Positions 48,831-58,644 of a DNA stretch of 64,000 nt are shown piece after piece. Origin of the DNA: Algoriphagus sp. (GTDB lineage Bacteria > Bacteroidota > Bacteroidia > Cytophagales > Cyclobacteriaceae); NCBI RefSeq assembly GCF_030694375.1, contig NZ_JAUXYL010000013.1, forward strand, positions 62,366 to 126,365. Direction: 5' to 3'. How positions within the stretch are numbered: position 1 is the first letter of the stretch; each line of letters starts with the position of its first letter. The notes beneath the pieces were generated by a model. It was not told the origin of the DNA and did no database searches. It worked only from the letters and a program-made list of their open reading frames with translations. A program made the position numbers and the translations under genes.

Positions 48831-51800
48831 GTGAAAAACCTCCACGATATACCACTGACTGAAGATATCCCAGGATATGTCGTGGAGGAAATTATCAAAG
48901 AATCCTTTCCCCATATTTTGTACCTCGCCTCCAGAAAAAAAGACGGCGTTCAGGTAGTCTTAAAAACTTTACTTGACCAATATCCCAAAAAAGAACACTT
49001 ATCCAGTCTTCGTAGAGAATATCAAATCATCACCAAACTGCAGGGAGAAGGGATCATTGCGGTAAACGCTTTGGTCAATTTCGGAAATGGCAAATCGGCC
49101 ATTGAAATGGAACGGTTTGGAATCTCTCTCGAAGAACATAGTGCAGCCTTTCCAGGTCAAATTTTACCCCTTGACCAATTTTTTACACTTGCTATTCCTC
49201 TGGTTAAGTCTCTGGGCAATATGCACGAAAAAGGGATTGTTCATAAAGATCTCGTCCCGCGAAATATTCTGATCGATCCCCACTCCGCCGATTTTCGGCT
49301 GATTGATTTCAGTGCTTCATCTGAGCTTTCCAGAGAGCATCAGGATGTTGCTTTTCTAAACAATATCGAAGGCTCACTTCCCTACATGGCACCGGAACAA
49401 ACCGGAAGAATGAACCGCGACATTGATTACCGGACAGATTACTATACGCTCGGCATTTCTTTCTTTCAACTTCTCACAGGCAAGCTTCCATTCAATGCCA
49501 AAGATGCCTTGGAGTGGGTTCACTGCCACATCAGCAAGCAAGCTCCCGCGCCTGTAAGCATTGATGGCACCATTCCAAAAATGGTATCAGCCATCATCGA
49601 AAAACTGATGGCAAAAAATGCCGAAGACCGTTACCAAAGCAGTTTTGGACTGGTATTGGACTTGGAAAAAGCGCGTGAAAACTTCCAAAACGGGGTAAAT
49701 CCGGATGCTTTTTCGCTGGGCCTTTCGGATGTTTCCCAGCTTTTTCAAATTCCTCAACGCCTCTATGGAAGAGCTCAAGAGCTTCAAAAGCTGGAGACTT
49801 TCTTTGAAAATACCAGCTCAGGTTCAGTGGAATTCTGTTTGGTGTCAGGCTACTCAGGCGTCGGAAAATCTGTATTGGTCCAAGAATTAGGTCGGTCCAT
49901 TGCCAAAAAAAGAGGATACCTCATTCACGGAAAGTTTGATCAGTTTCGACAAAATGCCGCTTATATCGCGATAGCAAGTGCATTTCGGGATTTGATCCGG
50001 CAATTGTTGGGCGAACCCAAAGAACGACTGGACGAATGGAACACAAAAATATCCTCCGCACTCGATACCAACGGACAACTGATAGTGGATTTGATTCCCG
50101 AATTGGAACTGATCATCGGAAAACAGGCCCAGGTACAGGAACTTTCTCCGGCAGAAACCCAAAACCGGTTTTTGATACTCTTTCTGAACTTCGTTAAAGT
50201 TTTTGCTACAGCAGATCACCCCTTGGTTATTTTTCTTGATGACCTGCAGTGGAGTGACATCCCTACTCTCAACCTGATCAACAGATTGGTCACCGCCCAA
50301 GAACAAAGTCACTTGTTGTTGATCGGTGCCTATCGCGACAACGCCGTAGATGCCACCCATCCCTTGATTTTGACTTTGGAAGAAATCAAGAAAAAGCGAA
50401 ACGTGGGAATGCTTCCACTTCAGCCGCTAACGCAAGAGGCCGTAGATCAGATCATCATGGACACCTTACTTTGCGACCATTCAAGATCTGAATCCCTCAG
50501 TGCTGTATTGTATGAAAAGACTGGTGGAAATCCATTTTTCACTATCGAATTGTTGAAGGACTTGCATGAACGGGGAGTCATCGTTTTCAATCTGAATAAA
50601 GGAGCATGGGATTGGGATCTGAATGCCGTAAAAAATGTTGAAAACAGTGATAGCGTGATTGATTTTTTGGTTTCGGGTCAGCACAGATTGAATGAATCAA
50701 CGCAACATGTCTTACAATTGGCAGCTTGTATCGGTGCTACATTCGACCTCAAAACCCTTTCTATAATCCGTGAAGGAAGTATGGAAACTACCGCGGCAGA
50801 ACTGTATGAGGCCATCAAATCCAACATGGTCATTCCGCTGAATGAAAACTATAAATATGTAGGGGTTGCATTTGCCACGAAAAACGAAGAAATACAAGAC
50901 TTTAGCGAAACTGGCTCTGATCTTCTCAATCCGATCTACAAATTTCAACATGACCGCGTGCAACAGGCTGCCTATTCTACGATTCCAAAGGAAAAGCGGC
51001 AGGCCTTACACCTTTCTATAGGAAGGTTGATACTTGCCCACACGACTGCAAAAGAACTCGACGAGGTCTTGGTAGATGTGGTCGGTCACTTAAATGAGGG
51101 TAGGACTTTAATTCATGATCCCAAAGAACGCAGGGAATTTTCCCGCCTGAATCTGGAAGCTGGAATCAAAGCCCGTCATTCTTCTGCCTATGACGCCGCA
51201 CTGGGTTATCTAAAGATCAGCTTTGAAATGCTGGATGAAAATTCCTGGGAAAATGACTACGCGCTCATGTGGAGACTCAGTGAAGAATTGCAAAGCTGCT
51301 ATTACCTGACCGGAGATTGGAAAAATGCGGATGACTGGACCGAAGTCATGCTCAAAAATGCAAGAACACCTGTTGAAAAAGGGCTGGTCTTGGCAGTAAG
51401 AACTCGGCAGTACGCCACTATCGGTAAACTTCCCGAATCTATAAAAGCCGCCTATCAGGGACTTGCCATTCTGGGGTTCAATTTTATCCAAGTTCCCGAC
51501 TCCAAAAATGTCGCCGAGGAAGTCCAGCTTGTCACTGAAAACCTCAAGGGAAAAGAAGTCGCTGACCTCATCAACAATCCTGAAATCACTGACGAAAAAG
51601 CGAAAATTGCCAGTCAACTTCTGATGGAAATTTTTCCGGCAGCTTTCCTTTCAGGGACCGGCAGAATGTTTCCCTACCTGGTGCTGAAATCTGTCAATAT
51701 CGCATTAAAATACGGCAACAGTCCTGAGACGGCCTTTGCCTATGCAGGCTATGCCATGCTCCTATCGGGGTATTTTGAAGATCCCGCTGAAGGCTATAAA

Positions 51801-54251
51801 TACGGTAAACTGGCTGTGAATCTGATTGAAAAGTTCGACGACATTTCCCTAAGGTCTAGAATCATCTATGTCTACACCATGTTTGTCCATCACTGGAGCA
51901 ATCACTGGTCCAGTATGACGACTTGGTTTCAACGAGGCATCAAAGCCGGCTACCAATCCGGTGACTTATTGTATTTGGCATACAGTGCGCAGGATTGTAT
52001 CATCTGGGATCCGACCCTTGATTTGGAAACTGCCTCCCGGGAACAGCGAAAACTACTCGTCATTGTAAAAGAATGTGAGTACCAGGACTCCTATGATTCC
52101 GGCACACTCTTTCTGCAAATGCAGCAAAACTTCCAGGGACTGACCAAAAGTCAATTCACATTGACTGATGAGAATTTTGACGAAATGGAGTGTGTGAGCG
52201 GGATGTTGGAGCGGCATTTCATGACCGGAATCGCTAATTACCACATCTATAAAGCAGAAATTCACCTATTTTACAATGATCCTGCAGGGGCAATGCCTCA
52301 TATTAAAGAACAGGAAAAATTGATGGCATCCGTGATGTCATTACCCCAATCCGTGAGATTTCAGATCGTCGCATTTTTAGTCAGATCGATGCTGCTTTCC
52401 AATCTGGAATTGGAAGAACAAGAGTCGGTAATTTTAATCTTGCACCAAGAGCTGGAGAAAATGGCCAAATGGGCCAAAACTTGCCCTGAAAACTTCGAAC
52501 ACCTGCGATTACTAATGGAGGCCGAACTTAGCGGCCATTCAGGCAGAATCAGCGAGGCCTTGCATCTGTATGAACAATCCATCCAACATGCCAATAAAAA
52601 TGGATTTATAAGAGACGAAGCTATGGCAAACGAACTGACTGCCCAGTTTCTGATCCGAAACGCTTTGCCGAAAGCTTCCGAAGGGTACCTGCTTGCCTCC
52701 CATTACCTCTACTATCGATGGGGAGCTTACAGAAAAACCCAGGAGATGGAGAAAAAATATCAGGTTTTCAGGACTTCTTCACAATACAACAGCTCCTCTT
52801 TGTCCCGGCAAAATTTAAGCGCGCCAGGAACCATGGGTTCTGATTCGCTCAATGCAGATTTCTTGGATATGAGCTCCGTTTTTCGAGCTTCTCAGATAAT
52901 TTCCGGGGAGTTGGTGTTGGGAAAGCTACTGAAAGCAACTTTGCAAATCCTAATTGAAAATGCTGGGGCCAAAAAAGGATTCTTGGTCGAACAGAAGGAT
53001 GGAACTTTGGTGGTACTGGCACAAAACGATGCGGATCATCCAGAAGAAGTTATTCCTGTCCAAGTCGCTGGAAAAGCAGATCCATCCTTAATTCCCACTT
53101 CCCTGATCAACACGGCATTGCGAACCAATAAGCCGATTGTGATCGGGAATGCCCGTGAGCAGAACTCCTTTTCCTCAGATCCCTACATCATTCATCAGAA
53201 GCCACTTTCAATGATGTGCGTGCCACTTTCCACACATAATCAGGGAAATGTAGCAGTCTATCTGGAAAATAACCTGACGCACAGTGCTTTTACAGAGGAT
53301 CGGGTCAAAGTAATCAAATTGCTGGCTGCCCAAGCGGCCATTTCCATCGAAAATGCCCGAATCTACGAACAGCAAGAAAAACTCCTGAAAGCACAGCAGC
53401 ATTTTGTTCCTATTCAATTTCTGAAGCACTTGGGACATAATGACATTGCCAAAGTTAAACTGGGAGAATCGGTCTCCATGGATATGTCAGTCCTCTTCTC
53501 TGACATTCGGAATTTCACTCCTTTGGTAGAGTTACTCACGCCGCAATCTGTGATTGAGCTACTTAATGAATACTTCAACCACCTCGGGAAACACATTTCG
53601 GAGTCTGGTGGATTTATTGACTCTTATTCAGGAGATGAGTTTTTGGCACTTTTTGCTGTTCCTGCACAGCAAGCTGTAGAGGCCGGAGTCAACATGGCTG
53701 CAGCACTTCGGAAATTCAACCTGGAATCCGAGTTCAAGGGCCGTCCAATCCTGAAAATGGGTATCGGAGTCAATACAGGCCCTTTGGTCTTGGGGACGAT
53801 GGGGGCATACGACCGAATGCAATGTTCTGTGTTGGGTGATACCGTCAACCTGGCCTCCAGGATCGAGCAACTCACCAAAGTCTATGGTGCCCAATTTCTG
53901 ATCGGGGAAAATACCTTTCAATCTTTGGGAGATCCTGATCAGTTTTCCATCCGAATGGTAGACCGAGTAGCTGTAAAAGGAAAAGCACAGGCGGTAAGCC
54001 TCTACGAGGTAATCGACGCAGAAAGCCCGGAGCGGAAAGAAATCAAAGAAGCGACAAAAAGCCTACTCCAAGCCGGCATGAATGCCTATTTCGGCAGGGA
54101 CTTTGCCTTAGCCTTTGAAATTTTTTCAAAAGGAACGCTCCAAGATGCAGAGGATCCGGTGTTTGAAATTTTCATCAATCGGTCTCAACGATATCTCGAA
54201 AACCCTCCACCGGAAGATTGGAAGGGGTATGAGAGCCTCTTTTCCAAATAG
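48831..54251 (+). CDS. Multidomain Ser/Thr-kinase-like, AAA ATPase, helical, GAF and class III nucleotidyl cyclase protein
   Basis: VVLK, HKDLVPRNIL, DFS and YMAPEQTGRMNR (kinase). SGYSGVGKS and IFLDDLQW (Walker A/B). GAF: ENAGAKKG...LLAAQAAISIENA. Cyclase: VLFSDIRNFT, GDEFLALF, GIGVNTG and GDTVNLASRIE. Confidence 0.9.
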   Translation: MKNLHDIPLTEDIPGYVVEEIIKESFPHILYLASRKKDGVQVVLKTLLDQYPKKEHLSSLRREYQIITKLQGEGIIAVNALVNFGNGKSAIEMERFGISLEEHSAAFPGQILPLDQFFTLAIPLVKSLGNMHEKGIVHKDLVPRNILIDPHSADFRLIDFSASSELSREHQDVAFLNNIEGSLPYMAPEQTGRMNRDIDYRTDYYTLGISFFQLLTGKLPFNAKDALEWVHCHISKQAPAPVSIDGTIPKMVSAIIEKLMAKNAEDRYQSSFGLVLDLEKARENFQNGVNPDAFSLGLSDVSQLFQIPQRLYGRAQELQKLETFFENTSSGSVEFCLVSGYSGVGKSVLVQELGRSIAKKRGYLIHGKFDQFRQNAAYIAIASAFRDLIRQLLGEPKERLDEWNTKISSALDTNGQLIVDLIPELELIIGKQAQVQELSPAETQNRFLILFLNFVKVFATADHPLVIFLDDLQWSDIPTLNLINRLVTAQEQSHLLLIGAYRDNAVDATHPLILTLEEIKKKRNVGMLPLQPLTQEAVDQIIMDTLLCDHSRSESLSAVLYEKTGGNPFFTIELLKDLHERGVIVFNLNKGAWDWDLNAVKNVENSDSVIDFLVSGQHRLNESTQHVLQLAACIGATFDLKTLSIIREGSMETTAAELYEAIKSNMVIPLNENYKYVGVAFATKNEEIQDFSETGSDLLNPIYKFQHDRVQQAAYSTIPKEKRQALHLSIGRLILAHTTAKELDEVLVDVVGHLNEGRTLIHDPKERREFSRLNLEAGIKARHSSAYDAALGYLKISFEMLDENSWENDYALMWRLSEELQSCYYLTGDWKNADDWTEVMLKNARTPVEKGLVLAVRTRQYATIGKLPESIKAAYQGLAILGFNFIQVPDSKNVAEEVQLVTENLKGKEVADLINNPEITDEKAKIASQLLMEIFPAAFLSGTGRMFPYLVLKSVNIALKYGNSPETAFAYAGYAMLLSGYFEDPAEGYKYGKLAVNLIEKFDDISLRSRIIYVYTMFVHHWSNHWSSMTTWFQRGIKAGYQSGDLLYLAYSAQDCIIWDPTLDLETASREQRKLLVIVKECEYQDSYDSGTLFLQMQQNFQGLTKSQFTLTDENFDEMECVSGMLERHFMTGIANYHIYKAEIHLFYNDPAGAMPHIKEQEKLMASVMSLPQSVRFQIVAFLVRSMLLSNLELEEQESVILILHQELEKMAKWAKTCPENFEHLRLLMEAELSGHSGRISEALHLYEQSIQHANKNGFIRDEAMANELTAQFLIRNALPKASEGYLLASHYLYYRWGAYRKTQEMEKKYQVFRTSSQYNSSSLSRQNLSAPGTMGSDSLNADFLDMSSVFRASQIISGELVLGKLLKATLQILIENAGAKKGFLVEQKDGTLVVLAQNDADHPEEVIPVQVAGKADPSLIPTSLINTALRTNKPIVIGNAREQNSFSSDPYIIHQKPLSMMCVPLSTHNQGNVAVYLENNLTHSAFTEDRVKVIKLLAAQAAISIENARIYEQQEKLLKAQQHFVPIQFLKHLGHNDIAKVKLGESVSMDMSVLFSDIRNFTPLVELLTPQSVIELLNEYFNHLGKHISESGGFIDSYSGDEFLALFAVPAQQAVEAGVNMAAALRKFNLESEFKGRPILKMGIGVNTGPLVLGTMGAYDRMQCSVLGDTVNLASRIEQLTKVYGAQFLIGENTFQSLGDPDQFSIRMVDRVAVKGKAQAVSLYEVIDAESPERKEIKEATKSLLQAGMNAYFGRDFALAFEIFSKGTLQDAEDPVFEIFINRSQRYLENPPPEDWKGYESLFSK

Positions 54252-54380
54252 TCTCACAGTGACCTATTTTTCTTACCTTAAAAGAAAATAGATACGGGTA
54301 CAGGCATAGCTTTTAAAACCACTCAATAAAGGACCACGATAAATGGATTTTTTTTCTCGCAACAAAATGGAAACAATTTC

Positions 54381-55352
54381 ATGAAGGCTTTTCGACTAGG
54401 CGTAGTAATGGATCCCATCGAATCCATCAATCCAAAAAAAGACACTTCACTTGCACTCATGATCGAAGCACAGTCAAGAGGCTGGGACTTGGTTTATCTT
54501 GAGATGAAAGACCTATTTCTAAGAAGCGGTCGTGCAGAAGCAAGAATGCGTCAGGTCAAAGTCTTTGATGACCCGCATCATTGGTATGAAATCGGAGTTG
54601 AAACCTACGGCAGTCTTTCAGAATTGGATGCCATCATGATGCGAAAGGATCCTCCTTTTGACATAGAATACATCATGGCAACTTATATTCTCGAACGTGC
54701 CGAATCCGAAGGCGTGTTGGTCCTCAATCGGGCCCAGTCACTCCGCGATGTCAATGAGAAGGTTTTCACGGCTTGGTTTCCTCAGTGCTGCCCTGCCAGC
54801 CTATTGACACGTTCTAAATCGGCCATTAAAGATTTTCTCCAAACTCATCACAAAATCGTCGTAAAACCCACCGCTAAAATGGGGGGACAGTCAATTTTTG
54901 TGATTGCAGAAGGAGACCCGAATACCAATGTCATCATCGAAGAATTGACCCAACGGGAAACCTGCTACATACAGGCACAAGCCTATATTCCTGAAATCTC
55001 GACTAAAGGCGACAAGCGAATCATATTAATCGACGGAGAGGCCGTGGAATATGGCATTGCACGAATCCCGGGAGCAGGTGATCATCGCGGAAATCTAGCC
55101 GTCGGAGCTACCGCAGAGGGATTTGAATTGACTGAACGGGATAAATGGATATGCGCTCAAATTGGCCCGGAACTAAAACAGCGGGGCTTGTTTTTCGTCG
55201 GAATCGATGTAATCGGAGATTACCTGACTGAAATCAATGTGACCAGCCCTACCGGCATCAAAGAAATCGGCAAAATTTTCCACATCAACATTGGCGCAAA
55301 ATTTTTTGAGGCACTTGAAAACAAGCTTTCCACCCAGAAAAATAAACCATGA
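54381..55352 (+). CDS. gshB: Glutathione synthetase (prokaryotic ATP-grasp type)
   Basis: VVMDPIESINPKKDTS, MRKDPPFD.EYI..T, NEK, KP...MGG, GDKRI, RGNLAVG and TEINVTSPTG. Confidence 0.94.
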   Translation: MKAFRLGVVMDPIESINPKKDTSLALMIEAQSRGWDLVYLEMKDLFLRSGRAEARMRQVKVFDDPHHWYEIGVETYGSLSELDAIMMRKDPPFDIEYIMATYILERAESEGVLVLNRAQSLRDVNEKVFTAWFPQCCPASLLTRSKSAIKDFLQTHHKIVVKPTAKMGGQSIFVIAEGDPNTNVIIEELTQRETCYIQAQAYIPEISTKGDKRIILIDGEAVEYGIARIPGAGDHRGNLAVGATAEGFELTERDKWICAQIGPELKQRGLFFVGIDVIGDYLTEINVTSPTGIKEIGKIFHINIGAKFFEALENKLSTQKNKP

Positions 55353-56419
55353 TTTCGCCCTTAAGCAACCAAACAGCTCAGGTCGTAGATTGGTGGTTTA
55401 TTTACAAATTACCCATCAAAATCGGACCCCATAAGAACAGCACCGGTTTTGAATTTTTGTACTCAGATTCGCTTCCCGAAAACGGATTGAAGCTTTCGCC
55501 TATTTCACTGGATCATCCCGAGTCAGCCTTGGGTTTGACTTTGGAGCAAATTTTTTCCCCAGATTCAGGCTACGGATATATACTCTGGAACGACGAAATC
55601 CCCCCAACTCCGGGAAATCCTAAGCCCAAAAACAAAGGATCCATGGGACATACCAAAGGAATTTTAGCCTTTTCCAAAAAATCCAACAGTGGATTTTATT
55701 TGCTTCATTCTACGCCAAGATTCCCTATTCCGGGTGCTACCGTTCTTCCCGATTACGAACGGAAATTTGGACAAACCTATCTTTGTGTAAGCTTAAAGGA
55801 TTATGACACTGCAAATCAGATTGCTGGAATTTTGCATTCCCAGCATGAGGCACAAGTCTATGCGAGCCACCTACCGGAGACCGATCCTGATGAAAATCTC
55901 TCCAAATTCGCAAAAAGTGAAACTGTAGATAAACCCATTCAACCTATTCATTTTCAATTTAATACTCACAATGGAATCGAGTTTAACTTGATAGCCAAAA
56001 ACAGGAGATGGAGCAAAGCTCCAAAGGGAAGTAAAGTCGGAAGGGACTTCTGGAAGGATCTGATTGGCCCTACGCTTAAGTGTGACATAGATGTGGAATC
56101 CTGGCGGAGAGGCATCGTATTCGGTGATTTGGATTCCGAAGTACAGGATATTACAGAGGACATTGTGGATGTGGATCTCAGCAAAATCGGATTGGCAGGA
56201 TTTTCTTGGGCATTCGAAAAAGACCATGCGAAATGGGGAATTACTCCGAGTATCGAACCGGGATACATTATCGTATCCGACATCAACCGACAACTCAGCC
56301 AAGCCAACCGTGGCGGAGGCGGTTTGGCTTTTCGGGATACCGACCTTTGGAATTTCCTTGATCAAATCCAGATTGTTGAAAAAAATATTGAATCCGATCC
56401 TCACAAAGACCTATCCTAA
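55349..56419 (+). CDS. Deoxyribonuclease II family nuclease (PLD fold), no evident signal peptide
   Basis: VDWWFIYKLP, GHTKG, LHSTPRFP, GQTYLCVS, KDHAKW and DINRQLSQANRGGG correspond in order to the DNase II motifs. ATGA overlap with gshB. Confidence 0.88.
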   Translation: MISPLSNQTAQVVDWWFIYKLPIKIGPHKNSTGFEFLYSDSLPENGLKLSPISLDHPESALGLTLEQIFSPDSGYGYILWNDEIPPTPGNPKPKNKGSMGHTKGILAFSKKSNSGFYLLHSTPRFPIPGATVLPDYERKFGQTYLCVSLKDYDTANQIAGILHSQHEAQVYASHLPETDPDENLSKFAKSETVDKPIQPIHFQFNTHNGIEFNLIAKNRRWSKAPKGSKVGRDFWKDLIGPTLKCDIDVESWRRGIVFGDLDSEVQDITEDIVDVDLSKIGLAGFSWAFEKDHAKWGITPSIEPGYIIVSDINRQLSQANRGGGGLAFRDTDLWNFLDQIQIVEKNIESDPHKDLS

Positions 56420-56446
56420 CTGAATACTTTTTTGTCATCTGAACCA

Positions 56447-57811
56447 ATGAAAATTGAAAAACTTACGCTCGATGGATGTCGAAATTTTCTCGCGCAAACT
56501 CTTTTTGAACCTAAGACTGATTCGGGTGCGTCTCAAAAAAATTCGGATAAAATAGGCGTTGAACTGGAAGCTTTCCCTGTTCGGTTTACAGACTATGAAA
56601 AAACTAAAGCTATTCCAATCCCGCTGAAAGGTGAGAAATTATCCTTGCATCAAGAACTGGAAAAAGCCTCCGTCTTGATGGATGGAAAAGTTGATTTTAG
56701 CAACAATGGAAGTCTCGCTCCAATCAGATTCCCGAACGGAAGTTTGTTTCAATATGAGCCGGGAGGACAACTGGAAATTGCCACCTCTCCCTGTAAAACC
56801 CTGCCGGAGTTGATCGCTCAGCTCAGACTTCAACAGGATATTTTAGACCGTATTACAAGCGAACATCAGATATACTTTTCCCAATTGGGCACAAATCCAT
56901 GGTTTGATCTCACACAAATCGGACTTCAATTAGACAAGCCCCGGTACCGGGCATTGCAAGAATACTTTTCCCGATTGGGTCCATATGGTGTTCAAATGAT
57001 GCGGCAGACTTGTTCGCTTCATGTCAATCTAGACCTGGGATTGGCTGAATCAACCCAAGTTAAACGGATTGTGGCGGCAAATCTTTTGGCACCGTTTGCC
57101 ACGGCAATTTTCGCCAATTCAGGGATTTTGGAAGGGAAAATTACCACTCGGAAATCACATCGAAGCTATCTGTGGCAACAACTTGATTCCTCAAGAACAG
57201 GGATAAGAGGACTTGAACCCTTTGATGGACTACCCGAAAAAAGTCAGCTAATAGAAACGTATCTGGATTTTGCCATGAAGGCTCCAATCCTTCATATCAA
57301 GGCCTTGGGAGATCGTGTTTTCCCGGTTGATTTCACTTTTGACTCTTGGTTAAAAAATCCTATCGCGGGACTTTCTCCATCATGGGACGACTTGGAAAAT
57401 CATCTATCCTTACTTTATCCTGAAGTAAGAATTAAAGGATTTTTGGAAATCAGAACGGCAGATGCATTACCCCGGGAATGGCAATTGGTACCTGCATTTT
57501 TTTATACAGGTCTTCTCTATTCCAATGATTCCTTGGAAAAAGTGTTGGAATTGCTTTTGCCATTTCAGAAAGAAATCAACGCACTTTGGGAGAAATCATC
57601 CTTTGGATTTGAATCCAATGAGATCTTTGGAATATCCGGTAAATTGATGAAGCTGGCTTTGGACGGGATGGCTGGCTTCGAAGAGGAATTTGCCTGCAAG
57701 GATTCGAAATTAAATTTGGAAAATTATTACAACACCTTCACCTCACAACGAAAATCTGTTGCTGAAGCGACGGTTGCAAGATTTTTAGAAGGTAAATCAT
57801 TGATTTATTGA
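56447..57811 (+). CDS. gshA: Glutamate-cysteine ligase (GCS2/EgtA/plant-type)
   Basis: IGVELE, YEPGGQLE, MMRQTCSLHVNLD, IFANS, RSYLW..LD..RTG and HLS.LYPEVR.KGFLEIRTAD. Start placed at ATG 56447. Confidence 0.88.
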   Translation: MKIEKLTLDGCRNFLAQTLFEPKTDSGASQKNSDKIGVELEAFPVRFTDYEKTKAIPIPLKGEKLSLHQELEKASVLMDGKVDFSNNGSLAPIRFPNGSLFQYEPGGQLEIATSPCKTLPELIAQLRLQQDILDRITSEHQIYFSQLGTNPWFDLTQIGLQLDKPRYRALQEYFSRLGPYGVQMMRQTCSLHVNLDLGLAESTQVKRIVAANLLAPFATAIFANSGILEGKITTRKSHRSYLWQQLDSSRTGIRGLEPFDGLPEKSQLIETYLDFAMKAPILHIKALGDRVFPVDFTFDSWLKNPIAGLSPSWDDLENHLSLLYPEVRIKGFLEIRTADALPREWQLVPAFFYTGLLYSNDSLEKVLELLLPFQKEINALWEKSSFGFESNEIFGISGKLMKLALDGMAGFEEEFACKDSKLNLENYYNTFTSQRKSVAEATVARFLEGKSLIY

Positions 57812-57870
57812 TTCATTATTCTAACTTCTGGATTATTCTATTCACATATTTTTAACCCAACAAATCTTAC

Positions 57871-58644
57871 ATGACCGATTTTTCCCCACTTCAAAAAGTC
57901 ATTCCTGCCATCAAATCAGAAAACCTGCTGCCGATTGTGGTTTTTGACTTGGACGACACACTGTTCTCAACTGCCCGCAGAAACTTGACCATTATTCAGA
58001 ATTTTGCCGCGGACCAGGGAGATCAATTTCCTGATTTTGCAAAAGTAGCTGCCAAGCTGAGCCTCTCCGACATGAATTGGAGTGTGAAGTTTGCACTTAC
58101 CCAAGCCGGATTAGATGCTAATTCTGCCTCAATCGCCCCTTTCATTACCTATTGGGGCAATACTTTTTTCACCGATGACTATGCTTCACTTGATTTGCCA
58201 AATCCCGGCGCTGTCGACTTTGCAAATGCCTGCCATGATGCCGGAGCGATGATATTCTACCTCACCGGTCGACATATCGGAGATCCCGGGCTGAAAAACG
58301 GAATGGGACTGGGAACTGCTCTGGATTTTACCAATAGAGGATTCCCATTTTGGAAAGGCCGTTGCGAATTGAAATTGAAAAAAGAGAAAACCCAAACCGA
58401 TGTGGACTACAAATCTGAAGCTTTGGCTGAGATCAACTCCTTAAAGGGTACTGTTGTGGCGACCTTTGACAATGAGCCTGGAAACTCAGTTTTATTCAAC
58501 CAACATTATCCAAATGCATTGAACTTTTGGGTGAAAACCACCTGGAATCCCAATGATAAAGTCAGTACTGAGGGACTGAATGTGATTTCTGACTTTTCAA
58601 ATTGGCAGACTCCTGCAAGCAACTATTCATCCCAAAAACCATGA
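57871..58644 (+). CDS. HAD-superfamily phosphatase (minimal cap; class IIIB / Pnkp-phosphatase-like)
   Basis: Motif I FDLDDTL, motif II YLTGR, Lys in DYK, motif IV FDNEP. Confidence 0.85.
   Translation: MTDFSPLQKVIPAIKSENLLPIVVFDLDDTLFSTARRNLTIIQNFAADQGDQFPDFAKVAAKLSLSDMNWSVKFALTQAGLDANSASIAPFITYWGNTFFTDDYASLDLPNPGAVDFANACHDAGAMIFYLTGRHIGDPGLKNGMGLGTALDFTNRGFPFWKGRCELKLKKEKTQTDVDYKSEALAEINSLKGTVVATFDNEPGNSVLFNQHYPNALNFWVKTTWNPNDKVSTEGLNVISDFSNWQTPASNYSSQKP

What the first reader, a model, noticed from the sequence alone, without database searches (positions are those of the whole stretch)
55349..56419. Eukaryote-type DNase II without signal peptide wedged between gshB and gshA
Seen: both catalytic HxK motifs (GHTKG near 55649, DHAKW near 56225) and the other DNase II blocks are present. 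The protein starts 11 residues before VDWW with no hydrophobic leader and is translationally coupled to gshB. Established: DNase II is mainly a lysosomal acid nuclease leaving 3'-phosphate ends, and bacterial homologs are sporadic. Inference: a cytoplasmic nuclease that must be regulated (by pH, thiol or cNMP), consistent with an abortive-infection or DNA-recycling effector.
Basis: partly seen in the sequence, partly recalled or inferred. Interest (0 to 1): 0.75.

Follow-up and report, generated by a model that had tools for sequence, protein, structure and literature searches.

The report
Leaderless bacterial DNase II in signalling island
This is a real, intact bacterial version of the "lysosomal" DNA-cutting enzyme DNase II that stays inside the cell; it sits in a 16-kb gene island and recurs across bacterial phyla beside a phospholipase-C-like phosphoesterase and a large sensor protein, which gives a first testable clue to what bacterial DNase II does.

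Summary
Observation confirmed. ORF 55349-56419(+) is a 356-aa DNase II (Pfam E=3e-64; E=1.5e-61 to the crystallised B. thailandensis enzyme). Both HxK motifs sit where stated. It has no possible N-terminal extension and an ATGA overlap with gshB.

Being leaderless is not new. It is published for Burkholderia and is the rule in bacterial homologs.

The gsh linkage is not unique. gshB-DNaseII-gshA is conserved in 18 Bacteroidota loci. In a 121-genome genus sample, the 13 DNase II genomes are a strict subset of the 15 with this gshB type.

The deeper partners are different:
- A leaderless PF04185 (plant NPC4-like) phosphoesterase is adjacent in at least 30 of 80 loci across several phyla, and is fused to DNase II in one 851-aa protein.
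- A GGACT/MBL-fold/kinase-STAND-GAF-cyclase operon is shared with about 20 Gammaproteobacteria, where the sensor ends in GGDEF instead.

DNase II is optional: two independent deletions and one nonsense allele occur in otherwise intact islands, but elsewhere dN/dS is 0.05-0.13.

Best reading (about 0.45): a latent cytoplasmic acid-type endonuclease that works with the phosphoesterase as an output arm of this signalling module. Defence is not supported (no PADLOC or phage hits).

The parts
55349..56419 (+). DNase II (356 aa), leaderless. HxK motif 1 is at 55649-55657 (H101-T-K103) and HxK motif 2 at 56225-56233 (H293-A-K295).
   Evidence: Pfam PF03265 E=3.2e-64. PDB 5i3e E=1.5e-61. Catalytic residues invariant. 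dN/dS 0.13 and 0.045.
54381..55352 (+). gshB, glutathione synthase. Its stop codon overlaps the DNase II start (ATGA).
   Evidence: PF02955/PF02951. NF003573 E=1.7e-127 above cut-off. Overlap seen. It is the only high-scoring gshB match in this genome.
56432..57811 (+). gshA, GCS2-type (plant/EgtA-like) glutamate-cysteine ligase.
   Evidence: PF04107 E=9e-36. Below-cut-off hits to EgtA and plant GCL models. No PF04262-type GshA in the genome.
43862..46006 (-). PF04185 phosphoesterase (714 aa) with a roughly 290-aa N-terminal domain and no leader. It is the most widespread partner of bacterial DNase II.
   Evidence: PF04185 E=3.6e-55. Best PDB match is plant non-specific phospholipase C4, 8hav, E=1.5e-38. 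The family lies next to DNase II in 30 loci and is part of the island in 4 of 4 complete Bacteroidota genomes tested. It is fused to DNase II in P0123.
46228..47253 (+). UDG-fold protein A (341 aa), a paralog of the last gene of the island.
   Evidence: No Pfam hit. AF2 model pLDDT 87; Foldseek finds UdgX and family-4 UDG at E about 2e-4, TM(target) 0.50-0.57. Homologs lie beside DNase II in Nitrosomonas, Piscirickettsiaceae and Phycisphaera loci.
47256..48050 (+). GGACT/AIG2-like gamma-glutamyl cyclotransferase (264 aa) with a C-terminal extension.
   Evidence: PF06094/PF13772. Weak match to human GGCT 2pn7. 49-53% identical orthologs head the divergent operon next to DNase II in about 20 gammaproteobacterial loci.
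48111..48827 (+). MBL-fold protein (238 aa) with a degenerate HxHxDH motif. I used it as the marker of the trio operon.
   Evidence: No Pfam or PDB sequence hit. AF2 pLDDT 92.7; Foldseek 2p97 E=1.5e-10 plus VIM/GIM metallo-beta-lactamases. 51-55% identical in Gammaproteobacteria.
48831..54251 (+). Sensor protein (1806 aa): Ser/Thr kinase, AAA_16 (STAND-like), TPR, GAF and a class III nucleotide cyclase.
   Evidence: Pfam domains. Orthologs (45-49% identity) lie beside DNase II in about 20 gammaproteobacterial loci; the one ortholog examined there ends in GGDEF instead.
57871..58644 (+). HAD-superfamily phosphatase-like protein (257 aa).
   Evidence: PF03767 (class B acid phosphatase) E=2e-6 and PF00702. 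Conserved in all Bacteroidota islands.
58602..59984 (+). UDG-fold protein B (460 aa), the last gene of the island.
   Evidence: Paralog of 46228-47253 (tblastn 22-26%; alignment A3). Genes downstream of it differ between species.

Best explanation
The gene encodes a catalytically intact, cytoplasmic PLD-fold endonuclease of the bacterial leaderless DNase II subfamily.

By homology with the B. thailandensis enzyme it should cut double-stranded DNA without metal ions through a covalent His intermediate, leaving 3'-phosphate and 5'-OH ends. It should be essentially silent at neutral cytoplasmic pH.

It is not a free-standing gene. Together with a leaderless PLC/AcpA-family (PF04185) phosphoesterase it forms an optional hydrolytic output arm of a conserved signalling module. 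That module is a GGACT-type gamma-glutamyl cyclotransferase, an MBL-fold protein and a kinase-STAND-GAF-cyclase sensor.

I infer that DNase II fragments DNA, and that the phosphoesterases (PF04185, HAD) and UDG-fold proteins process the 3'-phosphorylated products. This would be a controlled intracellular DNA dismantling or recycling route, switched on by a stress or nutrient signal.

gshB and gshA flank the nuclease in Bacteroidota because the module needs a gamma-glutamyl or glutathione substrate that these hosts do not otherwise make. The wedged position reflects operon packing and co-expression, not thiol control of the nuclease.

Shown: family membership, catalytic residues, absence of a leader, the conserved contexts, the fusion protein, purifying selection and optional loss. 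Inferred: the substrate, the coupling to the phosphoesterase, the trigger and the physiological purpose.
For: Family and catalytic residues.

Leaderless state: and PMC5449587. In vitro activity only at pH 4-5, with overexpression in E. coli.

Phosphoesterase partner:
- The PF04185 cluster is adjacent in 30 of 80 loci, in operonic or convergent-overlapping layouts. These span Gamma-, Beta- and Alphaproteobacteria, Chlamydiota, a Candidatus Moanabacter MAG, Planctomycetota and Flavobacteriaceae.
- It is in the island in Algoriphagus and Gillisia.
- P0123 is a single 851-aa protein with PF04185 at 17-417 and DNase_II at 515-845.

Trio partner:
- GGACT-MBL-sensor lies next to DNase II in about 20 gammaproteobacterial loci at 45-55% identity to the window proteins.
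- In a 121-genome gammaproteobacterial family sample, DNase II occurs in 7 genomes, all within the 17 that carry the MBL marker. This holds even where the two lie on different contigs.

Glutathione genes:
- In 121 genus genomes, the 13 with DNase II are a strict subset of the 15 with the island-type gshB, and the two genes are always adjacent.
- Five gammaproteobacterial hosts have a canonical gshB elsewhere.
- The island gshB gives the only high-scoring (canonical-tier) gshB match in this genome.

A second, unrelated module repeats the same theme of nuclease, large NTPase and phosphoesterase. It is DNase II with a PNP-domain GTPase, a metallophosphoesterase and a ferritin-like protein, seen in Burkholderia; most of these genes recur beside DNase II in a Flavobacteriales MAG.

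Purifying selection: dN/dS 0.13 and 0.045.
Against:
- A nuclease that is inert at pH 6-9 has no obvious way to act in a healthy cytoplasm.
- DNase II is dispensable for the rest of the island. There are two independent clean deletions and one W252-to-TAG allele.
- 10 of 17 trio-bearing genomes in the gammaproteobacterial family sample lack DNase II.
- Many DNase II lineages have neither the trio nor the PF04185 neighbour, for example Schlesneria, Chloroflexia and Kordiimonas.
- The PF04185 partner resembles lipid-directed phospholipases C, so a DNA-end phosphatase role is only a guess.
I did not test this.
Confidence: 0.45

Rival explanations
1. Abortive-infection or anti-phage effector. The STAND-like kinase/cyclase sensor detects infection and releases DNase II, the PLC-like enzyme and the glutathione-degrading GGACT to destroy phage DNA or the infected cell.
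For: The sensor has an AAA_16/STAND-like NTPase, and its kinase and cyclase domains resemble those of defence proteins (PD-T4-6, Mad6, PycC). The distribution is patchy: 13-15 of 121 genus genomes. Gillisia and Christiangramia sequences nest among Algoriphagus, which indicates transfer between orders. Effector loss and pseudogenisation occur. The nuclease is swapped between modules.
Against: No island protein matches a PADLOC system model beyond generic domains. No homolog exists in 50,697 phage records, and only two Burkholderia megaplasmids match among 72,556 plasmids. The trio is 68-78% identical across gammaproteobacterial genera and, in the one locus whose flanks were annotated, sits between pyruvate kinase/GAPDH and a histidine kinase, not in a defence island. 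The sensor's output domain matches the host's general second-messenger system: GGDEF in Gammaproteobacteria, and a cNMP cyclase in a genome with 0 GGDEF and 11 cNMP-binding proteins. No effector carries a messenger-binding domain.
Confidence: 0.15
2. The DNase II homolog works on a phosphodiester other than DNA. It could turn over the sensor's cyclic nucleotide product, giving 3'-NMP that the phosphatases finish. Alternatively it could act with the PLC-like enzyme on phospholipids or another phosphodiester polymer, for example lipid remodelling under phosphate limitation.
For: The PLD superfamily spans lipid, nucleotide and DNA substrates (PMC5449587). The tightest partner is most similar to plant NPC4, a phosphate-starvation phospholipase C. 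The homolog is inactive on DNA at physiological pH. A cyclase or GGDEF domain lies in the same module.
Against: The B. thailandensis homolog (E=1.5e-61) degrades plasmid DNA and forms a clamp sized for duplex DNA. The cavity residues equivalent to K20 and K123 are kept as K20 and R124. UDG-fold and PNP-domain neighbours point to nucleic acid or nucleoside chemistry. DNase II also occurs with sensors that have no cyclase.
Confidence: 0.15
3. Passenger gene. DNase II merely lodged between gshB and gshA and has no functional tie to its neighbours.
For: It can be deleted cleanly with the rest of the island left intact. The trio exists without it in 10 of 17 genomes of the gammaproteobacterial family sample.
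Against: The position is identical in all 18 Bacteroidota loci across two orders. Purifying selection is strong. The same partners recur in another phylum in a different gene order. A phosphoesterase-DNase II fusion protein exists. Genome-level nesting holds in two independent samples.
Confidence: 0.08
4. An exported scavenging nuclease that leaves the cell by a non-classical route to digest environmental DNA at acidic microsites.
For: The discussion in PMC5449587 raises nutritional and extracellular roles for bacterial DNases in general. The acid pH optimum fits an extracytoplasmic site.
Against: There is no Sec, Tat or lipoprotein signal on DNase II or any partner. No secretion genes were seen in the island. 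The gene is translationally coupled to cytoplasmic glutathione synthase.
Confidence: 0.05

Closest known systems
Burkholderia thailandensis DNase II (PDB 5I3E/5UNB; Varela-Ramirez et al. 2017, PMC5449587)
   Same: Same family and length class: 356 aa here against 350 aa. The phmmer alignment runs end to end at E=1.5e-61. Both HxK motifs are present and neither protein has a signal peptide. By homology I expect metal-independent acid DNase activity leaving 3'-phosphate ends.
   Different: The window protein belongs to a separate, well-supported Bacteroidota clade. That clade has a 9-residue basic insert after W221 and a conserved C-terminal tail. Gene context differs. In two other Burkholderia species the gene heads an operon with a PNP-domain GTPase, a metallophosphoesterase and a ferritin-like protein. 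Here it lies between gshB and gshA in the island with the sensor and the PF04185 phosphoesterase. No biological role is known for either enzyme.
Eukaryotic lysosomal DNase II alpha/beta
   Same: Same Pfam family and the same two HxK catalytic motifs. The chemistry is presumed to be the same.
   Different: The eukaryotic enzymes need a leader peptide, disulfides and N-glycans and act in acidic organelles (PMC5449587). The window protein has no leader and only two cysteines, and is encoded inside a cytoplasmic operon. Among the top 150 family representatives, leader-bearing and leaderless forms cluster separately on a tree.
Cyclase-plus-effector defence systems (Pycsar; CBASS in the wider sense)
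   Same: A nucleotide cyclase domain with weak PycC similarity (E=1.9e-16) is encoded in the same operon as a potentially lethal nuclease.
   Different: The nuclease has no cyclic-nucleotide-binding domain. The cyclase is the tail of an 1806-aa kinase-STAND-GAF protein. Its ortholog in Gammaproteobacteria carries GGDEF instead. There is no PADLOC system match and no phage or plasmid association.
PF04185 phosphoesterases: plant NPC4, bacterial PlcH/PlcN-type phospholipases C and the AcpA acid phosphatase (the partner gene, not DNase II itself)
   Same: The partner at 43862-46006 and its 510-730-aa relatives match PF04185 at E=1e-55 to 1e-72 and plant NPC4 at E=1.5e-38.
   Different: From my own knowledge, the known bacterial members are exported. 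All DNase II-linked members here lack Sec and Tat signals. Many carry an extra N-terminal domain of about 300 aa. To my searches, pairing or fusion with DNase II has not been described.

Membership tests
DNase II (Pfam PF03265) | Whole-domain match above the curated cut-off | tested here: met
   217.6 bits against a cut-off of 23, covering residues 7-340 and profile positions 4-319 of 326.
DNase II (Pfam PF03265) | Two HxK catalytic motifs (H100/K102 and H279/K281 in the B. thailandensis enzyme) | tested here: met
   H101/K103 and H293/K295 align to them and are invariant in 20 homologs.
DNase II (Pfam PF03265) | Metal-independent DNA cleavage at acid pH giving 3'-phosphate ends | not testable with these tools
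   Shown only for the B. thailandensis homolog: active at pH 4-5 with EDTA, with no activity at pH 6-9 (PMC5449587).
DNase II (Pfam PF03265) | U-shaped homodimer that clamps duplex DNA | not tested
The cavity residues K20 and K123 of the B. thailandensis enzyme correspond to K20 and R124 here.
Eukaryotic (lysosomal) type of DNase II | N-terminal signal peptide, disulfides and N-glycosylation | tested here: not met
   No upstream start is possible and the first 12 residues are polar. The protein has only two cysteines. This makes it the bacterial leaderless type, not the eukaryotic type.
Known anti-phage defence systems (PADLOC-DB 2.0) | Match of the component proteins to a system's models | tested here: not met
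   DNase II, gshB, gshA, HAD, GGACT, the MBL-fold protein and both UDG-like proteins have no hit. The sensor hits only generic kinase (PD-T4-6, Mad6) and PycC domain models.
Pycsar-type cyclase/effector pair | Effector carries a cyclic-nucleotide-binding domain, and the cyclase is dedicated to it | tested here: not met
   No cNMP-binding domain was found in any island protein. The sensor ortholog in Gammaproteobacteria uses GGDEF.
Conserved GGACT / MBL-fold / kinase-STAND-GAF-cyclase module with PF04185 and DNase II (undescribed; defined here) | Co-location or genome-level co-occurrence of DNase II with the trio and the PF04185 phosphoesterase | tested here: met
   All parts are present in the window at 43862-59984. 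The same set is found in about 20 gammaproteobacterial loci. Nesting is 7 within 17 of 121 genomes and 13 within 15 of 121 genomes.

The most novel reading that the evidence does not exclude
DNase II, the NPC-like phosphoesterase and the GGACT enzyme are the executioner arm of a bacterial self-dismantling programme run by the kinase-STAND sensor, and the glutathione genes are its trigger chemistry. GshA would make gamma-glutamylcysteine and the GGACT enzyme would convert it (or glutathione) to 5-oxoproline. This ATP-burning futile cycle would lower cytoplasmic pH enough to switch on an acid-only DNase. That would explain why a nuclease inert at pH 6-9 is kept in the cytoplasm, and why a phylum that otherwise lacks glutathione carries gshA and gshB inside the island.
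Probability: 0.06. Interest if true: 0.9.

Novelty: new member of a known kind. Interest (0 to 1): 0.55.

Why it matters
Bacterial DNase II has a crystal structure but no known biological role, and the literature still describes it as a curiosity of 'a few genera' acquired from eukaryotes.

This locus shows three things:
- The leaderless form is a broad bacterial subfamily. At least 236 loci were found in species-representative genomes from 10 or more phyla, and the family has 3,286 cluster representatives.
- It is nearly always embedded in multi-gene modules that pair it with a phosphoesterase and a large NTPase or sensor protein.
- One such module crosses from Gammaproteobacteria to Bacteroidota, changing its second-messenger output and picking up glutathione synthesis on the way.

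This turns 'what is a cytoplasmic acid DNase for?' into concrete experiments: DNase II with the PF04185 enzyme, pH gating, and dependence on the sensor. If the coupling holds, it would define a new regulated DNA-breakdown route in bacteria.

Tried and rejected
- PADLOC scan of nine island proteins: only generic kinase and PycC domain hits.
- NCBIfam: no model for DNase II, GGACT, the MBL-fold protein, HAD or the UDG-like proteins.
- tblastn against phages found nothing. Against plasmids it found only two Burkholderia megaplasmids.
- Sequence searches of the PDB with the MBL-fold and UDG-like proteins found nothing useful, so fold prediction was needed.
- Literature searches for DNase II with gene neighbourhoods, glutathione genes, GGCT or defence found no description of this linkage.
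- The sigma-70 promoter and terminator scan was uninformative for a Bacteroidota operon. It shows only hairpins just after 59984.
- The idea that the gsh linkage is the core association is rejected. It is confined to one Bacteroidota clade.
- The idea that the trio is a universal partner is rejected. The MBL marker is absent from 9 of 10 other DNase II genomes tested.
- One shared deletion in G064 and G069 is rejected. G069 is closer to a DNase II-bearing species (81-84% nt) than to G064 (72-77%).
- A leader/leaderless tree of family representatives could not settle the direction of bacterium-eukaryote transfer, because the library carries no taxon names.
Full report

The frame 55349-56419(+) runs from the first possible start codon to the stop and gives 356 residues.
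- It matches Pfam DNase_II over residues 7-340 at E=3.2e-64.
- It matches the crystallised Burkholderia thailandensis DNase II (5i3e/5unb) at E=1.5e-61 over nearly its whole length.
- The two catalytic HxK motifs are H101/K103 and H293/K295. They are invariant in an alignment of 20 homologs down to 42% identity.
- The start ATG overlaps the TGA of the upstream gene (ATGA). That gene is a canonical glutathione synthase (NF003573, E=1.7e-127).
- A GCS2-type glutamate-cysteine ligase starts 12-28 nt after the DNase II stop.
- No longer N-terminus is possible, and the twelve residues before VDWW are polar.
- Base composition is the same as in the flanks.

BEING LEADERLESS IS ALREADY KNOWN

All 20 aligned bacterial homologs begin 10-15 residues before the DWW motif. 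Varela-Ramirez et al. (PMC5449587) state that Burkholderia DNase II has no secretion signal and is retained in the cell. They also show that it degrades plasmid DNA only at pH 4-5 with EDTA, shows no activity at pH 6-9, and can be overexpressed in E. coli.

What is out of date is the view that bacterial DNase II is confined to 'a few genera':
- A pattern-limited scan of one genome per species found 236 loci. The best 80 come from at least 10 phyla.
- A profile search of 1.84 billion cluster representatives found 3,286 family members, 745 of them at E<=1e-30.
- Among the full-length sequences of the best 150, about 35 are leaderless and about 67 have a hydrophobic N-terminal leader. The two labels cluster on a tree, needing 8 changes against 33 expected by shuffling.

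THE GSH LINKAGE IS REAL AND CONSERVED, BUT LINEAGE-SPECIFIC

The window is 98% identical at protein level to Algoriphagus alkaliphilus.

tblastn of the window's neighbours against the 80 loci shows gshB-DNaseII-gshA in 18 loci. These are Algoriphagus species, Gillisia, Christiangramia, Antarcticibacterium, a Bacteroidia MAG and two contigs binned as 'Limnohabitans'. In every locus long enough, the same larger island is present: sensor, gshB, DNase II, gshA, HAD and the UDG-like protein.

In one 121-genome sample of the genus:
- A gshB of this type (E about 1e-65 to 1e-70) occurs in 15 genomes.
- DNase II occurs in 13 genomes.
- The 13 are a strict subset of the 15, and DNase II always lies directly beside gshB.

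On a maximum-likelihood tree, the gsh-linked sequences form one clade (support 98/97), with Flavobacteriaceae nested among Cyclobacteriaceae. This indicates transfer of the island between orders.

THE DEEPER PARTNERS ARE NOT THE GSH GENES

Clustering all ORFs of the 80 loci shows two recurrent partners.

1. A PF04185 phosphoesterase.
- It is adjacent to DNase II in 30 loci.
- In Gammaproteobacteria the two genes converge, and in at least one locus (L029) their 3' ends overlap by 4 bp.
- In a Chlamydiales MAG, a Rhodobacter MAG, a Candidatus Moanabacter MAG and an Aquimarina genome they are operonic with gaps of 18-27 nt.
- The window has the same family at 43862-46006(-). The gene is in the island in all four complete Bacteroidota genomes tested.
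- Its best solved relative is plant non-specific phospholipase C4 (E=1.5e-38).
- None of about 30 members has a Sec or Tat signal.
- One metagenomic protein, P0123 (851 aa), is a fusion of PF04185 (17-417) and DNase_II (515-845). This is independent evidence that the two enzymes work together.

2. A three-gene operon: a GGACT/AIG2-like gamma-glutamyl cyclotransferase, a 238-aa protein, and the large sensor.
- The 238-aa protein has no Pfam hit. I modelled it (pLDDT 92.7) and it has a metallo-beta-lactamase fold.
- The operon lies divergently next to DNase II in about 20 gammaproteobacterial loci. These include Thiohalomonadaceae, Sedimenticola, Thiodiazotropha, Motiliproteus, Marinobacterium, Neptuniibacter and Hahella. 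Identity to the window's proteins is 45-55%.

The two unannotated paralogs that bracket the Bacteroidota island model as UDG-superfamily folds (pLDDT 87; UdgX and family-4 UDG at E about 2e-4). They also sit beside DNase II in Nitrosomonas, Piscirickettsiaceae and Phycisphaera loci.

GENOME-LEVEL TESTS

In 121 genomes of the gammaproteobacterial family around Marinobacterium:
- The MBL-fold marker is present in 17 genomes and DNase II in 7. All 7 are among the 17.
- In Amphritea, DNase II with the phosphoesterase and the trio lie on different contigs.
- Four genomes carry the trio alone. One carries the trio with the phosphoesterase but no DNase II.

So the trio is the core, and DNase II is an optional add-on that, in these lineages, is not found without it.

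The rule is not universal. The MBL marker is missing from the genomes of nine other DNase II loci: Schlesneria, Rhodothermales, Chlamydiales, Rhodobacter, Aquimarina, Phycisphaera, Chloroflexia, Kordiimonas and Moanabacter. It is present only in Nitrosomonas.

A second module carries DNase II in two Burkholderia megaplasmids: a PNP-domain GTPase, two hypothetical proteins, a metallophosphoesterase and a ferritin-like protein. The ferritin-like protein, the GTPase and the two hypotheticals recur at 40-53% identity beside DNase II in a Flavobacteriales MAG. The recurring theme is a nuclease with a large NTPase and a phosphoesterase, often with a fold that cleaves N-glycosidic bonds.

WHY GSHA AND GSHB ARE HERE

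- Five gammaproteobacterial hosts of the module have a canonical gshB elsewhere in the genome.
- In the window's genome (100% complete), the island gene gives the only high-scoring gshB match. There is no PF04262 GshA, and the only other GCS2 hit is a 386-aa ORF on another contig.

The simplest reading is that the module, whose first gene is a gamma-glutamyl cyclotransferase, needs a gamma-glutamyl or glutathione substrate. The Bacteroidota island therefore brings its own supply. This is inference.

THE SENSOR PLUGS INTO THE HOST'S GENERAL SIGNALLING

- The window's 1806-aa protein is a kinase, AAA_16, TPR, GAF and class III cyclase.
- Its ortholog in Gammaproteobacteria has the same body but ends in GGDEF.
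- The window's genome has no GGDEF domain at all and has 11 cNMP-binding proteins.
- No island protein has a messenger-binding domain.
- In the one gammaproteobacterial trio locus whose flanks I annotated (a locus without DNase II), the flanking genes are pyruvate kinase, GAPDH and a histidine kinase.
- No PADLOC system model matches, and there are no phage homologs.

This argues against a self-contained cyclase-effector defence system. It also argues against direct cNMP control of the nuclease.

DNASE II IS CONSTRAINED BUT DISPENSABLE

- dN/dS is 0.13 between the window and A. alkaliphilus, and 0.045 between two more distant copies.
- Two genus genomes (G064, G069) have the whole island but no DNase II.
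- Their 120-150-nt gap between gshB and gshA still begins with the ATGA overlap and the first DNase II codons.
- In G069 the gap is an in-frame 33-codon relic (P0271). It joins the first six or so codons to the last 26 or so.
- G069's island is 81-84% identical in DNA to that of Algoriphagus sp. A40, which keeps DNase II, but only 72-77% identical to G064's. The two deletions are therefore independent.
- A. boritolerans carries W252-to-TAG.

MECHANISM AND VERDICT

The best-supported explanation (confidence about 0.45) has three parts:
- The protein is a latent cytoplasmic acid-type endonuclease that cuts DNA to 3'-phosphate ends.
- It is functionally coupled to the PF04185 phosphoesterase.
- The pair serves as an optional output arm of the GGACT / MBL-fold / sensor module for controlled DNA breakdown or recycling.

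The gsh flanks supply substrate to the module rather than regulating the nuclease.

Rivals:
- Abortive-infection effector (0.15).
- A non-DNA phosphodiester substrate (0.15).
- A passenger gene (0.08).
- Non-classical export (0.05).

The protein itself is a new member of a known family. What appears undescribed is its conserved wiring.

The scan has no note of this system on other DNA.

Noticed in passing
P0123 (metagenomic protein; not in the window): A single 851-aa protein fuses a PF04185 phosphoesterase (17-417) to a complete DNase II domain (515-845). Other family members carry TPR, DUF2278 or long unknown N-terminal extensions.
   Followed up: partly
window 48831-54251 compared with L088:10584-15710: Orthologous kinase-AAA_16-TPR-GAF sensors end in a class III cyclase in Algoriphagus but in GGDEF in Gammaproteobacteria. 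The Algoriphagus genome has no GGDEF domain and 11 cNMP-binding proteins, so the output domain tracks the host's messenger system.
   Followed up: partly
L086:8971-18415 and L087:7322-16769 (Burkholderia megaplasmids); L040: A second conserved DNase II module: DNase II, a 980-aa GTPase with a PNP_UDP domain, two hypothetical proteins, a metallophosphoesterase, another hypothetical protein and a ferritin-like protein (PF12902). Four of these genes recur at 40-53% identity beside DNase II in a Flavobacteriales MAG.
   Followed up: partly
L027:2296-8572, L035:754-7017, L050: In a Chlamydiales MAG, a Rhodobacter MAG and a Candidatus Moanabacter MAG, DNase II and a short (about 510 aa) PF04185 enzyme follow a 1,210-1,226-aa fusion of a DyP-type peroxidase and a pyruvate-formate-lyase-like domain.
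   Followed up: no
L036:3944-5698 and relatives (L041, L043, L053, L058; also L092:15629-17341): A 584-596-aa protein with no Pfam hit sits divergently next to DNase II where the trio is not adjacent (Amphritea, Pseudomaricurvus, Nitrosomonas). In one genome it lies just downstream of the trio without DNase II. It may be a further module component.
   Followed up: no
L005 and L006 (contigs of a MAG labelled uncultured Limnohabitans): Two contigs of one betaproteobacterial-labelled MAG each carry an Algoriphagus-type island, with proteins 66-89% identical to the window's. They are probably mis-binned Algoriphagus contigs from two strains.
   Followed up: no
L008:6001-7071 (Algoriphagus boritolerans DSM 17298): The DNase II has a single in-frame TAG at the invariant Trp252 (TGG in the window), while the rest of the gene is conserved. 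It is annotated in public records as a 251-aa protein.
   Followed up: yes
genus-wide: About 19 other Algoriphagus genomes have a second, different gshB-like gene (PF02955 E about 1e-50) and no DNase II. Glutathione synthesis seems to have entered this genus at least twice.
   Followed up: no
window 56012-56038 (residues 222-230) and 56378-56416 (C-terminal tail): The Bacteroidota/Schlesneria clade of DNase II has a 9-residue basic insert after W221 and a conserved acidic-His C-terminal tail. Both are absent from the gammaproteobacterial clade and from the B. thailandensis enzyme. They could be partner-binding or regulatory elements.
   Followed up: no
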